Assembly (NCBI GenBank): GCA_965219415.1
Contig: CBDCNP010000002.1
Span: 2,720,001 to 2,784,000, forward strand
Direction: 5' to 3'
DNA: 64,000 nucleotides
Source: Candidatus Marinacidobacterales bacterium
Lineage (GTDB): Bacteria; Acidobacteriota; Vicinamibacteria; Marinacidobacterales; DATDRI01
Each line of letters starts with the position of its first letter. Position 1 is the stretch's first letter. The position numbers were made by a program. Below are positions 15,001 to 18,000 of this stretch, piece by piece.

Positions 15001-18000
15001 GCGTACTTCGAATCGCTGCCGGACGACGTCCGAACCGCGGTTCGGGAAGTAGCAGTGGAGGTGGGCCGCTATCATCGCCGACTCGGTGAGACGGAAGACG
15101 AGCGACACCTGATCTTCCTCGAGGAGCGTTTGCAGATCGACACCATCGACCGCGGAGCTTTCGAAGCGGCAGGTGTTCCGCTCTATGAGCACTACAAGGA
15201 ACGGTTTGGCGACGGCCTCGTCGAGGCTGCCCGAAGTTATCACTCCACACCCTAGAATTTCGAGATCCTATGCCCCCGCGTTTTGCCGAGCGGCTTGACC
15301 GCGGTATCCGCCGCCTTCTCGAGACTACGTTGTTGGTCATTCTTTCGGCGATGGCGGTCATCTGCTTCGTCGAGGTCGTCCTTCGCTACGGCCTAGGTAT
15401 GAGTTTTGGCTGGTACGATGAGTTCACCGGCTACTTGCTGGTCTGGCTCACGTTCCTGGGCGCGGTGGCCGCCCAACAGGACGGCAGGCACATCGGTCTA
15501 GGCGGCGTCGCCGAGCGGCTCGGCCCTCGTGGCCAACGGCTCGCCGCTCTTTGCACGCACGGGCTCATGATCGCTCTGCATCTACTTCTTCTCTCCTACG
15601 GTGGCCTTCTTGCGGTCCGTTTCCTTTCCGACCGTGCCATTACGCTGCCAGTTCCGATGGGCATCATCTATATCGTCATTCCGTTCTCTGCGCTTCTGAT
15701 GCTGGGGGTCGAGGTCATCCAGCTGGGACGCACCCTCCAAACCGAACCCGATAGCTAATGGAACTCATACTCCTCGTTGTCATCGCGCTCTTGGCCCTGG
15801 TTGGCCTCCCCATCGGCTATGTTCTGATAGCCGCGAGCACCATTCTGATTGCACTTACCACGAGCACGCCCCTGGTCGTGGTGCCACACCGCCTCTTCAA
15901 CGGCACCGACAGCTTTCCCATGGTGGCGGTGCCGCTTTTCATCCTCGCCGGCTCTCTGATGAATCGAGCCGGCATCTCTCATCGTTTGGTGGAGCTTGCT
16001 AACAGCCTGGTTGGATTCATAAGAGGCGGGCTGGCCATGACTACTACGGTCTCCAGTATGTTCTTCTCCGAGGTATCGGGCTCCGCGGTGGCGGATGCCG
16101 CAGCCTTGGGGAGCGTACTCATTCCCGCCATGAAGGAAAGGGGCTATCCTGCGCGCTTCGCCGCCGCAGTCCTTTCGTCATCGGCCACCATCGCGATCAT
16201 CATTCCACCTTCGATTCCCATGATTCTTTACGGAGCGATCACCGGCTCGTCGATCGTGAAACTGTTCATAGCCGGCGTAGCACCGGGAGTTTTGTGTGGC
16301 GTGGCGATCATGTTGACCAGCTACTGGCTCACCCGCCGCGGGGGGTTTGCCGAATCGGAGCCGTTTGAGTTGAAGCGAGTCTCGAAAGGTCTCCGCCGGG
16401 CGTTTCTGGCGCTAGCCCTGCCTCTCGTGATCTTGGGAGGGATTTTCGCAGGCGTCTTCACGGCAACAGAGGCGGCTGCCGTAGCGGTCGTCCTAGCCTT
16501 AGGGTTGGGATTCTTTGTTTATCGTTCCCTCGAGAGAAAAGACCTGAGGCCCATTATCGTGGACGCCGCAGGACAGACCGCGGTGGTCATGATCTTGGTT
16601 GCGGGTTCGGCGGTTCTGGGCTGGTACCTGGCCAACCAGCAAGTGCCCGAGAGGTTGGCCTCATTCACGCTCGCCCACGTCGAAGGGAAAACCGGCGCCC
16701 TCCTTCTTATCGACGGCCTGTGGCTGGTGGCTGGAATGATCCTCCACAGCGCCGCCGCGATCGTTCTTCTCGTTCCTATCCTCTTGCCGCTAACCACGGA
16801 GTTGGGAATCGATCCCATTCACTTCGGCCTCATGGTCACGGTCAGCTTGGCCATCGGCCAGCAAACCCCACCGGTGGCTTCGGTGCTCATTACCACGTGC
16901 TCGATTGCAAAAGTGCCGATGGGTGAGGTCATGCGGGTGAACATCTACTTCATTCTCGCGATGCTCGCGGTGCTGCTGCTGGTGACGTTCTTCCCCCAGT
17001 TGAGCCTGTGGCTCCCTTCATTGATTTCCCCATAGAGAAAAAGGCAAGAGAAATGGTCTCTTCTTCCTTTATACCCTCTCCCTTCCGCCTTCGCTGAAGC
17101 TTCGGCGGACCCGCCGAAGTTCTCTGGAAAAAAGCGGACGAAGGCGGGTTGGGAGAGTTGGGCGTCAAAAGATGGCGTGCCGCACTCAACGTCGTCAGAC
17201 GCCGGGTGAGGGAACCTCGTTATCCCGTTTGATCCTTTCTCTCTAACATTGCAATCGTCGCTCCCCAGCCGCCACGGTCTGGGGAGGCTTCGCGGAAACT
17301 CGAGACCTTCGGATGCTTGGCGAGGACTCGGCGGACGACCTCTTTCTGGACGCCTTTCCCTCGGCCGTGGATTAGTCGGACTTCTTCGAATCCCTCCTCG
17401 ATCGCGGCTTCGAGATACGATTCCACTACGGAAGGGATGTCGCGAGGAGAAAAGGTATGGAGATCGAAGCTATCCTGCACCGGCACCGGTTCGGGAAAAA
17501 AATCATCGGTTTCGGACGCCATAGGCGATCATCCTTTTTTGGCGGAAGTGCGTGGGAATCGAACCCACCGTCCCGAGGATTAGCCCGGAACCATCGGATT
17601 TGAAGTCCGTGGAGGCCACCAGACCCCAGTCACTTCCCTCACTGCTAACACATTATATCAACGTAGGTTATCGAGTTCGGGTTTTTCGAGATCGGATTTT
17701 TCGGAATCGGCTGGACTTTCCCCGAACTTTGGAGCGCAATGAGCATGAATGGGTTGATTTTCTCTTGACGGTAGATGAACGTTTACGGCGGCATACCGGC
17801 GAGGCGTGTGGTGGTGCTATATGATCCAGCAGACCTCTCAACGCAACTTTGAAGAGCGCCCGATGGTGGCGAATTTTTCGGCCTGGACTGTATTACACAA
17901 TTTGGGTGGCGGGATTCTCGCATACGCGTATGGAATAACGATCCGCTAGACGAATAATCAAGGATTACACGATCCTTGATCCTTCACGCGGGTGTAAGCC

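What a model noticed while it worked through the whole genome (the two positions that open the first line are those of the whole stretch)
17540..17637. Selenoproteome of at least 23 genes in an acidobacterium
The genome encodes tRNA-Sec (the anchor coordinates given), SelA, SelB and a Sec-containing SelD, and at least 23 selenoprotein genes: 21 in known families plus the two new ones. This is far more than the 3 reported for the one Acidobacteriota genome analysed in the deep-Sep paper.
Evidence so far: **Machinery:** calls 4 and 58-60. **Genes with TGA at the family's Sec/Cys position, with Pfam or NCBIfam support**: - C1: 45290-45751 (OsmC), 52544-53086, 659864-662902, 686957-688870, 822987-824012, 1155909-1156406, 1552903-1554123. 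- C2: 249396-250007. - C3: 116663-117334, 137400-137765, 377932-378423, 512371-512985, 811118-812245, 1576259-1576522, 1587857-1588729, 1900049-1901023, 3105240-3105650, 3430924-3431670, 3644620-3645492, 3889610-3890686, 4093547-4095142, 4157281-4157751, 5336580-5337197. **Other support:** Cys is aligned in own-genome paralogues for 8 candidates. Comparison figures come from PMC12013277.
(Added by a program. Inside this text positions count along the whole contig: contig position 2,720,001 is position 1 of the stretch shown here. "Call 12" and the like, gene names such as g00115 and contig names such as C1 are that model's own, and its searches are not shown. The text may have been shortened before it was handed on; [...] marks where a part breaks off. 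The agent that wrote the report below was given it as the finding of a first reader that could run no searches.)

Follow-up and report, generated by a model that had tools for sequence, protein, structure and literature searches.

The report
Selenoprotein-rich marine acidobacterium, about 30 genes
This acidobacterial genome carries the full machinery for inserting selenocysteine and about 30 genes that use it, which is far more than reported for its phylum and includes several enzyme types not yet listed as selenoproteins.

Summary
**Observation: confirmed.**
- Window 17540-17637 (-) is the genome's only tRNA-Sec.
- SelA, SelB and a SelD with an in-frame TGA are present elsewhere in the genome.
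- All 23 listed genes have one open frame with exactly one internal TGA.
  - Pfam or NCBIfam matches span that TGA in 22 of 23.
  - The exception (C2:249396) keeps its TGA in relatives.
  - One gene (C3:3105240) carries a real 1-nt frameshift.

**The count is a lower bound.** My own scan adds seven solid genes and one probable one:
- RtcB
- a two-Sec UXX-star glutaredoxin
- a second deiodinase-like protein
- a peroxiredoxin
- a WAxxUGC-like redoxin
- two FG-GAP/ASPIC-thioredoxin paralogues
- a probable hypothetical protein with the motif 'PTAGTUEGG'

That gives 30-31 genes.

**Supporting evidence**
- SECIS-like hairpins follow 29 of 32 Sec codons, against 42% of Cys-codon controls and 35% of true-stop controls.
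- In 19 of 19 fetched orthologues, the relative's TGA aligns exactly with this genome's TGA.

**Context**
- SelA occurs in 301 of 401 sampled genomes of the phylum, so the trait itself is common.
- The richness is shared with related Candidatus Marinacidobacterales genomes.
- Published maxima are 57-63 genes.

**Verdict:** a real, extended finding of a known kind, with a few apparently unlisted selenoprotein families.

The parts
17540..17637 (-). selC, the genome's single tRNA-Sec. It has a UCA anticodon, a long variable arm and an encoded 3' GCCA. It is the only part of the system that lies in this window. Everything else is elsewhere: SelA on C3 at 1.72 Mb, SelB on C2, SelD on C3 at 3.89 Mb, and about 30 selenoprotein genes spread over C1, C2 and C3.
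   Evidence: - ARAGORN calls tRNA-SeC.
- Rfam RF01852 scores 69.7 bits against a gathering score of 47, E 3.4e-12, covering the whole model.
- It is the only tRNA-SeC among 49 tRNAs genome-wide.
- Its neighbours are unrelated to selenium: TRAP transporter DctP/DctM, an Smr-domain protein, tRNA-Ala(GGC), PEP carboxykinase and an IS3 transposase.

Best explanation
The window holds selC, the tRNA-Sec gene of a Candidatus Marinacidobacterales bacterium (Acidobacteriota, Vicinamibacteria).

**Inferred pathway, following the established bacterial one**
1. tRNA-Sec is charged with serine.
2. SelA converts the serine to selenocysteine, using selenophosphate made by SelD. SelD is itself a selenoprotein here.
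3. SelB delivers the charged tRNA to in-frame UGA codons that are followed, about 20-30 nt downstream, by a hairpin with a G-rich apical loop (bSECIS).

**What uses it**
About 30 genes use this system, with 31-32 Sec codons in all.
- Most are thiol-type redox proteins with Sec at the position of the reactive Cys: five peroxiredoxin or Prx-like proteins, four AhpD-like, PDO, two deiodinase-like, a WAxxUGC-like redoxin, OsmC, DsrE, two rhodaneses and a two-Sec UXX-star glutaredoxin.
- The set also includes two formate dehydrogenases, SelD, ArsM, a PrdB-like protein, an UshA-like protein and DUF3179.
- Several types are not in the catalogues I could search:
  - RtcB, with Sec at the metal-ligand Cys.
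  - A MetE-like protein, with Sec in the H-x-C zinc motif.
  - A Trx-like protein with the motif 'SPTUPVC'.
  - Two FG-GAP/ASPIC-thioredoxin proteins.
  - A hypothetical protein with the motif 'PTAGTUEGG'.

**Shown versus inferred**
- Shown: the genes, the conserved in-frame TGAs, the hairpins, and Sec/Cys pairs in relatives.
- Inferred: that Sec is actually inserted, and what each protein does.
For: **Machinery:**

**Coding potential**
- The reading frame is the best of six on both sides of the TGA in 22 of 23 listed genes.
- The exception is SelD's 25-codon upstream segment (1.4 against 1.5).

**Family matches over the TGA:**. Examples:
- FDH-N alpha, 1354 bits.
- PDO_seleno_TRX, 250 bits, above its cut-off.
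- UXX-star family 1, 110.6 bits against a cut-off of 72.
- T4_deiodinase, E 5e-37.
- RtcB, E 8e-178.

**Own-genome paralogues**
- A paralogue aligns Cys with the TGA for 10 of the 23 listed genes and for the WAxxUGC-like gene.

**Hairpins**
- The 48 nt after the 23 listed TGAs fold at a mean of -16.2 kcal/mol. The same stretch after 1500 Cys codons folds at -11.7, and after 1000 true TGA stops at -11.0 (p 1e-5 and 7e-7).
- A defined SECIS-like hairpin follows 29 of 32 Sec codons, against 251 of 600 Cys codons and 141 of 400 true stops (Fisher 2.5e-8 and 5e-10).

**Relatives**
- In 19 of 19 fetched orthologues, covering 11 genes at 36-97% identity, the TGA aligns exactly with this genome's TGA.
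- RtcB has TGA in 6 of 7 family genomes that carry the orthologue. The seventh has TGC.
- The FG-GAP protein has TGA in 19 of 23 matches in relatives, and in 79 of 80 loci from many phyla. The hairpin there shows a compensatory C-G to U-A change.
- UXX-star has TGA in all 10 genomes with a match. The C-terminal 'U-A-V-stop' is kept in 4 of 4 sequences read.

**Standard genetic code**
- TGA ends 2016 of 4392 long ORFs, so it is the ordinary stop codon here.
Against: - There is no protein-level or RNA evidence. No RNA run holds the stretch I searched.
- I did not examine 13 of the 23 listed genes in relatives: both FDHs, Prx-like UxxC, rhodanese 1, PDO, BCP1, AhpC, ArsM, BCP2, AhpD-2, SelD, deiodinase-like 1 and AhpD-3. 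They rest on family matches, coding potential and hairpins.
- The hairpin test is weak for any single gene, because 35-42% of control sites pass it. Three Sec codons fail it: deiodinase-like 1 and both UXX-star codons.
- One listed gene is frameshifted.
- Several family scores are below NCBIfam's curated cut-offs, so the family names are approximate: UshA-like 126.6 against 275, WAxxUGC 62.6 against 300, PrdB 115.9 against 300.
- Start codons are uncertain.
- The genome is a MAG-like assembly with estimated contamination of 8.45%.
- Sense-codon homologues of the FG-GAP protein carry S, R, E, V, L or I at the Sec position, and Cys in only 2 of the 15 I read. Sec there may not be a classical catalytic residue.
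Confidence: 0.9

Rival explanations
1. Many of the in-frame TGAs are ordinary stops. Under this reading they are pseudogenes, sequencing errors, or two adjacent genes that happen to share a frame, and the true selenoproteome is small (FDH and SelD only).
For: **Such cases do exist in this genome, and I rejected them:**
- L047: the TGA aligns with Trp in two relatives.
- L051: the TGA aligns with Arg.
- A helicase with a 95.6% identical Cys paralogue, also disrupted by an IS element.
- Adjacent gene pairs: ArsM+PiT, M50+TrpRS, and transposases.

**Other points in its favour:**
- 308 TGAs pass my coding filter, and only about 30 of them are credible.
- One listed gene is frameshifted.
Against: - For the accepted genes, a single domain spans the TGA.
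- The TGA sits at the family's Cys position.
- The same TGA is kept at 36-97% identity in 19 of 19 fetched orthologues. The same holds for RtcB, FG-GAP and UXX-star.
- Hairpins are enriched after these TGAs.
Confidence: 0.04
2. UGA is read here by something other than the Sec system. Candidates are an opal-suppressing tRNA-Sec look-alike charged with Cys (selC*-type) or an acidobacterial allo-tRNA. Under this reading the proteins carry Cys or another residue instead of Sec.
For: tRNA-Sec-like tRNAs with other identities have been described, some of them in Acidobacteria (PMC5389517, abstract and passages).
Against: - The tRNA scores 69.7 bits on the tRNA-Sec model.
- SelA, SelB and SelD are all present above their curated cut-offs.
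- ARAGORN finds only one UCA-anticodon tRNA.
- The TGAs are followed by hairpins, as SelB requires.
- A Cys-inserting suppressor would not explain why TGA is limited to about 30 redox-type sites while it remains the main stop codon.
Confidence: 0.02
3. The rich set is an assembly artefact: contigs or genes from a selenoprotein-rich contaminant, such as a Desulfobacterota bacterium, were binned together with an acidobacterium.
For: Estimated contamination is 8.45%. The machinery is split over contigs, with SelB on C2, and SelA, SelD and selC on C3.
Against: - The three contigs have the same G+C content, 59.2-59.5%.
- Selenoprotein genes lie on all three contigs.
- The single-contig same-genus genome G401 carries TGA orthologues of at least 12 of them.
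- Independent Logan contigs from two studies reproduce the tested stretch exactly.
Confidence: 0.02

Closest known systems
Selenoprotein-rich bacteria already described. Syntrophobacter fumaroxidans (39 genes) and Desulfosediminicola flagellatus (43 known, 46 in all) are from PMC12013277. The Olavius algarvensis Delta 1 symbiont (at least 57) and a Methylomirabilota MAG (63) are from PMC13188914.
   Same: - The machinery is the same: selC, SelA, SelB and a Sec-containing SelD.
- The make-up is the same: mostly thiol-oxidoreductase-type families (Prx, AhpD, Trx/Grx-like, rhodanese, DsrE, OsmC) plus FDH.
- The count is far above the threshold of six genes used to call an organism selenoprotein-rich (PMC5029168, passage seen).
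   Different: - The lineage differs. The rich groups named in print are Thermodesulfobacteriota/Deltaproteobacteria, Clostridia and Synergistota. 'Acidobacteri' does not occur in the main text of PMC5029168, PMC9312934 or PMC13188914.
- At about 30 genes this is not a record.
- It lacks the glycine reductase GrdA/GrdB and hydrogenase/Hdr selenoproteins in my scan, and it adds RtcB, MetE-like and FG-GAP/ASPIC types.
Either may list acidobacterial selenoproteomes.
Acidobacterial selenoproteomes in print: Occallatibacter riparius DSM 25168 with 3 genes (PMC12013277 Table 2), and 'Acidobacteria' with 3 families and 4 selenoproteins (PMC1794560 Table 2)
   Same: Same phylum and same decoding system. 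SelA is widespread in the phylum: 301 of 401 sampled genomes, or 298 of 398 without the three unpublished genomes.
   Different: This genome has about ten times more selenoprotein genes. The richness is shared with families f1 and f99 of its order. The small-genome family f100 lacks most of the genes I tested.
Engineered Pyrococcus horikoshii RtcB C98U (PMC4150793)
   Same: Sec sits at the same conserved Cys of the 'GFDINCG' motif. This genome's RtcB aligns over this motif with solved RtcB structures 2epg and 1uc2.
   Different: That protein was man-made, and the paper reports that Sec there caused spontaneous cleavage (passage seen). Here the Sec form is natural. It is kept in 6 genomes of one family at 79-95% identity, and one family member has TGC. 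None of the 47 RtcB matches among 90 other genomes sampled from the phylum has a TGA.

Membership tests
Bacterial selenocysteine-decoding trait | tRNA-Sec with a UCA anticodon and a long variable arm | tested here: met
   ARAGORN. Rfam RF01852 scores 69.7 bits against a gathering score of 47. It is a single copy in the genome.
Bacterial selenocysteine-decoding trait | SelA, SelB and SelD are present | tested here: met
   TIGR00474 569.7 bits, TIGR00475 375.8 bits and TIGR00476 328-334 bits, all above their curated cut-offs.
Bacterial selenocysteine-decoding trait | An in-frame UGA followed closely by a stem-loop (bSECIS) with G in the first loop positions. This definition is recalled from the bSECISearch literature, not taken from a call. 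| tested here: met
   29 of 32 Sec codons pass my definition, against 251 of 600 Cys codons and 141 of 400 true stops. Loops are mostly GGN, GUN, GGUC(U) or CGUGN at +19 to +29. A compensatory change is seen in the FG-GAP hairpin.
Bacterial selenocysteine-decoding trait | Sec is actually incorporated, shown by 75Se labelling or mass spectrometry | not testable with these tools
   No protein data. No RNA run holds the stretch I searched.
Selenoprotein-rich organism (at least 6 selenoprotein genes, PMC5029168) | At least six selenoprotein genes | tested here: met
   22 intact listed genes, 1 frameshifted, 7 new solid and 1 probable.
[quoted passage not shown] | Score above the cut-off, a glutaredoxin fold, and Sec three codons before the stop | tested here: met
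   110.6 bits against a cut-off of 72. The C-terminus reads '...GWGGT-TGA-GCC-GTC-TAA'. It is kept in 3 relatives. A second Sec lies at residue 13, in 'GKAGUPYT'.
RtcB RNA ligase (PF01139) | A full-length RtcB domain with the metal-binding Cys of 'GFDINCG' | tested here: met
   PF01139 matches 55-491, E 7.7e-178. TGA sits in the Cys column, and the motif aligns with the same motif in 2epg and 1uc2. A Sec/Cys pair occurs within the family.
UshA-like (seleno)protein NF041198 | Score above the curated cut-off, and the PCGU motif | tested here: inconclusive
   126.6 bits against a cut-off of 275, so membership by score is not met. The motif 'EPCGU' is present, and the TGA is kept in G401 and G403.
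CRTAC1 / FG-GAP + UnbV_ASPIC proteins | FG-GAP repeats plus an UnbV_ASPIC domain | tested here: met
   FG-GAP_3 E 5.5e-44 and 9.4e-39. UnbV_ASPIC E 1.4e-15 and 4.3e-13. C-terminal AhpC-TSA/Redoxin domain. No Pfam or NCBIfam model covers the Sec-bearing stretch. Public annotation cuts these proteins off at the TGA.

The most novel reading that the evidence does not exclude
Candidatus Marinacidobacterales (Acidobacteriota) would be a further selenoprotein-rich bacterial lineage, beside Thermodesulfobacteriota, Clostridia and Synergistota. Its selenoproteome would hold several unrecognised selenoprotein families:
- A CRTAC1-like FG-GAP/ASPIC-thioredoxin protein. Its Sec codon and SECIS hairpin are kept in 79 of 80 loci across Acidobacteriota, Latescibacterota, Planctomycetota, Gemmatimonadota-like and other MAGs. 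Public annotation truncates these proteins.
- A natural Sec-RtcB, with Sec as a metal ligand in an RNA ligase.
- A MetE-like protein with Sec in the zinc-binding H-x-C motif.
- Two proteins with no family match, carrying the motifs 'SPTUPVC' and 'PTAGTUEGG'.
Probability: 0.6. Interest if true: 0.7.

Novelty: new member of a known kind. Interest (0 to 1): 0.5.

Why it matters
- **Wider lineage range.** This extends large selenoproteomes to a lineage of large-genome, apparently marine or sediment Acidobacteriota. The printed figures for the phylum are 3-4 genes.
- **Annotation problem.** Automated annotation cuts many of these genes off at the TGA. The FG-GAP proteins, for example, are filed as 525-621-residue 'hypothetical' or 'FG-GAP repeat' proteins.
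- **Testable chemistry.** The Sec/Cys pairs found here give natural test cases for what selenium does outside classical thiol-redox chemistry. The examples are RtcB within one family, the MetE-like protein against its own Cys paralogue, and the FG-GAP family with Sec, Cys or Ser. In RtcB and the MetE-like protein, Sec would act as a metal ligand.
- **Limit.** It does not change the known mechanism of Sec decoding.

Tried and rejected
**Candidates from my scan that I rejected**
- L047, C1:2000107-2001228: the TGA aligns with Trp in G401 and G414.
- L051, an alpha/beta hydrolase: the TGA aligns with Arg in G414.
- L048, M28-like: only a partial domain match, and a degenerate tail.
- Helicase at C3:2461056: a 95.6% identical paralogue has Cys, and the gene is IS-disrupted.
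- L049 and L050: transposases.
- L056: ArsM followed by a PiT transporter.
- L058: M50 peptidase followed by TrpRS.
- L053: LPD38 protein. Its TGA lies outside the domain.
- L052, L054, L055 and L057: no family match and not pursued.
- A second DUF3179 copy at C1:573899-574591 has 'VTWUPLAHTG'. Two further TGAs lie just upstream, so I did not count it.

**Ideas dropped**
- The idea that the FG-GAP family has Sec only was dropped. The protein database holds full-length homologues with Cys (2 of the 15 I read) and with S, R, E, V, L or I at that position.

**Searches that gave nothing**
- No RNA holder is listed for the stretch searched.
- Papers not held: Deng et al. 2026 (Cell Rep) and PMC12013261.
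- 'Marinacidobacter' gives 0 papers.
- 'FG-GAP' plus 'selenocysteine' gives 1 unrelated paper.
- 'RtcB' plus 'selenoprotein' gives 7 papers, of which only one concerns Sec in RtcB, and that protein was engineered.

**Not tested**
- The selenouridine (MnmH) and Se-cofactor traits.
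Full report
**1. The anchor**

Window 17540-17637 (-) is a tRNA-Sec.
- ARAGORN calls tRNA-SeC with anticodon tca.
- Rfam RF01852 matches the whole model at 69.7 bits, against a gathering score of 47.
- In the laid genome it is the only tRNA-SeC among 49 tRNAs. The genome has three contigs, C1 (2.07 Mb), C2 (0.28 Mb) and C3 (5.69 Mb), each with 59.2-59.5% G+C.
- Its neighbours have nothing to do with selenium: TRAP transporter DctP/DctM, an Smr protein, tRNA-Ala, PEP carboxykinase and an IS3 transposase.

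**2. The machinery**

| Gene | Place | Score |
|---|---|---|
| SelA | C3:1718188-1719549 | 569.7 bits |
| SelB | C2:242216-244105 | 375.8 bits |
| SelD | C3:3889655-3890587 | 328 bits, 1 in-frame TGA in 'CAGUASK' |

All three are above the curated cut-offs. TGA ends 2016 of 4392 long ORFs, so the genetic code is standard.

**3. The 23 listed genes**

- All 23 have one frame open end to end with exactly one internal TGA.
- Pfam finds a family in 21 of 23. NCBIfam covers the TGA in SelD and in the PrdB-like gene. It also places C1:822987 near NF041198, UshA-like (seleno)protein, at 126.6 bits, below the cut-off.
- C2:249396, with the motif 'SPTUPVC', has no family match.
- In a 3-periodic fifth-order Markov model trained on 3595 long ORFs, the reading frame is the best of six on both sides of the TGA in 22 of 23 genes. 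The exception is SelD's 25-codon upstream segment.
- Own-genome paralogues align Cys with the TGA for 10 of 23.

The Sec contexts are the expected ones:

| Protein | Sec context |
|---|---|
| FDH (two genes) | 'RLUHGP', 'RTUHAP' |
| AhpC | 'FVUATE' |
| BCP | 'PGUT', 'GGUT' |
| AhpD | 'C-x-x-U' |
| PDO | 'TUPYC' |
| Deiodinase-like | 'TUPPF' |
| DsrE | 'VUGLC' |
| ArsM | 'WTGUIAG' |
| Rhodanese (two genes) | 'CTUQ', 'TAUNGGGR' |
| OsmC | 'GGULVG' |
| DUF3179 | 'SWUPIDH' |
| PrdB-like | 'GUPVC' |
| MetE-like | 'FHLURGN' |

The MetE-like motif aligns with 'HiCRGN' of PDB 1ypx.

**4. The frameshifted gene**

- C3:3105240-3105650 matches its relatives only over residues 1-116. Those relatives are 275-297 residues long and have the same TGA.
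- In G000, the rest of the gene continues in another frame.
- Logan contigs of runs X1 and X3 (two studies, identical to G000, possibly its source) carry the extra base. Runs X7 and X9 (2-3 SNPs away) lack one base at place 349.
- So the frameshift is a real 1-nt insertion in this strain. Close strains have the intact Sec gene.

**5. My own scan**

Filtering:
- Of 218,152 in-frame TGAs, 43,685 have open flanks, and 308 pass a coding-margin filter. The filter recovers 19 of the 23 listed genes, so it also misses some true genes.
- I then applied a paralogue BLAST, read through the sequence contexts, and ran Pfam and NCBIfam on 20 picked candidates.

New solid genes:

| Place | Sec position | Motif | Family evidence |
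|---|---|---|---|
| C3:1393911-1395269 (-) | 75 | 'WASWUAGC' | Redoxin domain; five Cys paralogues |
| C3:3107515-3108168 (+) | 83 | 'GSYTUPPF' | T4_deiodinase, E 5e-37 |
| C3:693308-693925 (+) | 84 | 'WTGGUT' | AhpC-TSA, E 4e-27 |
| C1:1061885-1063357 (-) | 108 | 'GFDINUGVR' | RtcB, E 8e-178 |
| C1:869753-869974 (+) | 13 and 72 | '...GWGGT-U-A-V-stop' | UXX-star family 1, 110.6 bits against a cut-off of 72 |
| C3:4030981-4034643 (-) | 607 | 'KD[LT]US[FL]FWR[QH]VV' | FG-GAP + UnbV_ASPIC + AhpC-TSA(+TPR) |
| C2:205450-208269 (-) | 568 | 'KD[LT]US[FL]FWR[QH]VV' | FG-GAP + UnbV_ASPIC + AhpC-TSA(+TPR) |

One probable gene:
- C3:2144937-2145845 (+), motif 'PTAGTUEGG', with no family match.
- The TGA is kept in G401 at 85% identity, and the motif recurs with a TGA in G414.
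- It is followed by the hairpin GAGAACG-GGUC-CGUUCUC.

Total: 22 intact listed genes, 1 frameshifted, 7 new and 1 probable. That is 30-31 genes and 31-32 Sec codons.

**6. Hairpins**

- The 48 nt after the 23 listed TGAs fold more stably than controls.
- With a fixed definition, 29 of 32 Sec codons pass, against 251 of 600 Cys codons and 141 of 400 true TGA stops. The definition was a single hairpin of -7 kcal/mol or better, a loop of 3-8 nt with G in position 1 or 2, and the loop starting 15-40 nt after the U.
- Most loops start at +19 to +29 and read GGN, GUN, GGUC(U) or CGUGN.
- The test is informative for the set as a whole, not for any single gene.

**7. Relatives**

The genome search found 7 other genomes of the same family (f1, two of them in the same genus) and two other families of the order, f99 and f100. 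Orthologues or paralogues with TGA inside them:

| Gene | Result in relatives |
|---|---|
| RtcB | TGA in G401-G405; TGC in G406 |
| FG-GAP | 19 of 23 matches carry TGA, in 11 genomes |
| 'SPTUPVC' | 8 of 8 matches (7 of 7 without unpublished G407) |
| DUF3179 | TGA orthologues in G416 and G420 |
| MetE-like | 8 of 8 orthologues; the own paralogue C1:166659 has Cys |
| AhpD-t | TGA kept |
| UshA-like | TGA kept |
| PrdB-like | TGA kept |
| OsmC | 4 of 4 |
| DsrE | TGA kept in G414; the G405 paralogue has no stop |
| Small AhpD | TGA kept |
| WAxxUGC-like | TGA kept |
| UXX-star | all 10 genomes with a match |
| Rhodanese 2 | TGA kept, also in family f100 |

- I fetched 19 of these ORFs. In 19 of 19 the TGA aligns exactly with G000's TGA, with conserved flanks.
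- This rules out pseudogenes and contamination for these genes.
- It also shows that the rich set is a trait of families f1 and f99, not of this genome alone.

**8. Taxonomy and context**

- G401's contig length equals that of record OZ245365.1, titled 'Candidatus Marinacidobacterales bacterium'. That order belongs to Acidobacteriota, Vicinamibacteria.
- SelA is present in 301 of 401 genomes sampled across the phylum, or 298 of 398 without three unpublished genomes. The Sec trait is therefore ordinary in Acidobacteriota. What is unusual is the number of genes that use it.

**9. The less usual members**

*RtcB*
- None of the 47 RtcB matches among 90 other sampled genomes of the phylum has a TGA. 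Sec-RtcB therefore looks like a recent Cys-to-Sec change within family f1.
- The only Sec-RtcB I found in print is an engineered one (PMC4150793).

*FG-GAP/ASPIC*
- A scan of species-representative genomes gave 325 relatives. Of the best 80 loci, 79 have TGA in 'M[KNEH]DT-U-S[LFQH]FWR[HQ]VV'. One lacks the motif, and none has Cys.
- These 80 loci come from Acidobacteriota of several classes, Latescibacterota, Planctomycetota, Gemmatimonadaceae, Eisenbacteria and Aminicenantes.
- The adjacent hairpin shows a C-G to U-A compensatory change (GGCGCCAC...GUGGCG against GGCGUCA...UGACGC).
- The protein database does hold full-length homologues with a sense codon there. Among the 15 I read, the residue is C in 2, S in 4, R in 4, E in 2, and V, L and I in 1 each.
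- 88 of the 120 listed hits are fragments of 525-621 residues that end at the TGA. One of them comes from the G401 contig. Public annotation therefore does not read these genes as selenoproteins.

*Catalogues*
- The 2026 review PMC13188914, searched by term in its main text including Table 1, has no hit for RtcB, RNA ligase, FG-GAP, ASPIC, VCBS, MetE, cobalamin-independent, methionine synthase or Acidobacteri.
- It does list UshA-like, UXX-star family 1 and the other families found here.
- DUF3179 is listed in PMC9312934.

**10. Comparison with print**

| Source | Figure |
|---|---|
| PMC1794560 Table 2 | Acidobacteria: 3 families, 4 selenoproteins |
| PMC12013277 Table 2 | Occallatibacter riparius: 3 |
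| PMC5029168 | 'Selenoprotein-rich' means at least 6 genes; rich phyla are Deltaproteobacteria, Clostridia and Synergistetes |
| PMC12013277 | Largest sets: 39 and 46 |
| PMC13188914 | Largest sets: at least 57, and 63 |

Deng et al. 2026 and PMC12013261 are not held. Either may already list acidobacterial counts or some of these families.

**11. Verdict**

- The observation and the interpretation hold, and the count rises to about 30.
- This is a new, well-supported member of a known kind: a selenoprotein-rich bacterium in a lineage not noted for it.
- It comes with a handful of candidate new selenoprotein families that deserve their own follow-up.
- All functional statements remain inferences from sequence.

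Noticed in passing
G000 C1:1061885-1063357 (-), outside the window; loci L044 and L059-L064: A natural RtcB RNA ligase has TGA in place of the conserved metal-binding Cys of 'GFDINCG'. The TGA is kept in 6 genomes of one family, and one family member has TGC. None of the 47 RtcB matches elsewhere in the phylum has it.
   Followed up: yes
G000 C2:205450-208269 (-) and C3:4030981-4034643 (-); loci L065-L152: FG-GAP/UnbV_ASPIC proteins with a C-terminal thioredoxin-like domain carry a conserved Sec codon and hairpin in 79 of 80 loci from several phyla. Public gene calls end at the TGA, giving 525-621-residue fragments. Sense-codon homologues have C, S, R, E, V, L or I at that position.
   Followed up: yes
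G000 C3:811118-812242 (+), locus L028: A MetE-like protein (cobalamin-independent methionine synthase family) has Sec in the H-x-C motif 'FHLURGN'. The TGA is kept in 7 relatives at 64-87% identity, and a Cys paralogue lies in the same genome at C1:166659.
   Followed up: partly
G000 C1:869753-869974 (+), locus L046: A 74-residue glutaredoxin-like protein has two Sec codons: U13 and a C-terminal U-A-V-stop. It belongs to UXX-star family 1. Neither TGA has a hairpin under my definition, so how the C-terminal one is decoded is unclear.
   Followed up: partly
G000 C3:3105240-3106100 (+), locus L032: An AhpD-like Sec gene carries a 1-nt insertion in this strain. The insertion is also in two near-identical public contig sets and is absent from two slightly different ones.
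   Followed up: yes
G000 C1:573899-574591 (-): A second DUF3179 copy has TGA at the Sec position ('VTWUPLAHTG'), but two more TGAs lie just upstream. It may be a decaying selenoprotein gene.
   Followed up: partly
G000, many places (for example the C3 copies listed): Many repeated IS/transposase copies carry TGA where other copies have Trp or Arg, so they are nonsense-mutated copies. These dominate the false positives of any read-through scan in this genome.
   Followed up: no
window 20348-21196 (-): An IS3-family transposase (rve, HTH_21) lies about 2.7 kb from the tRNA-Sec.
   Followed up: no
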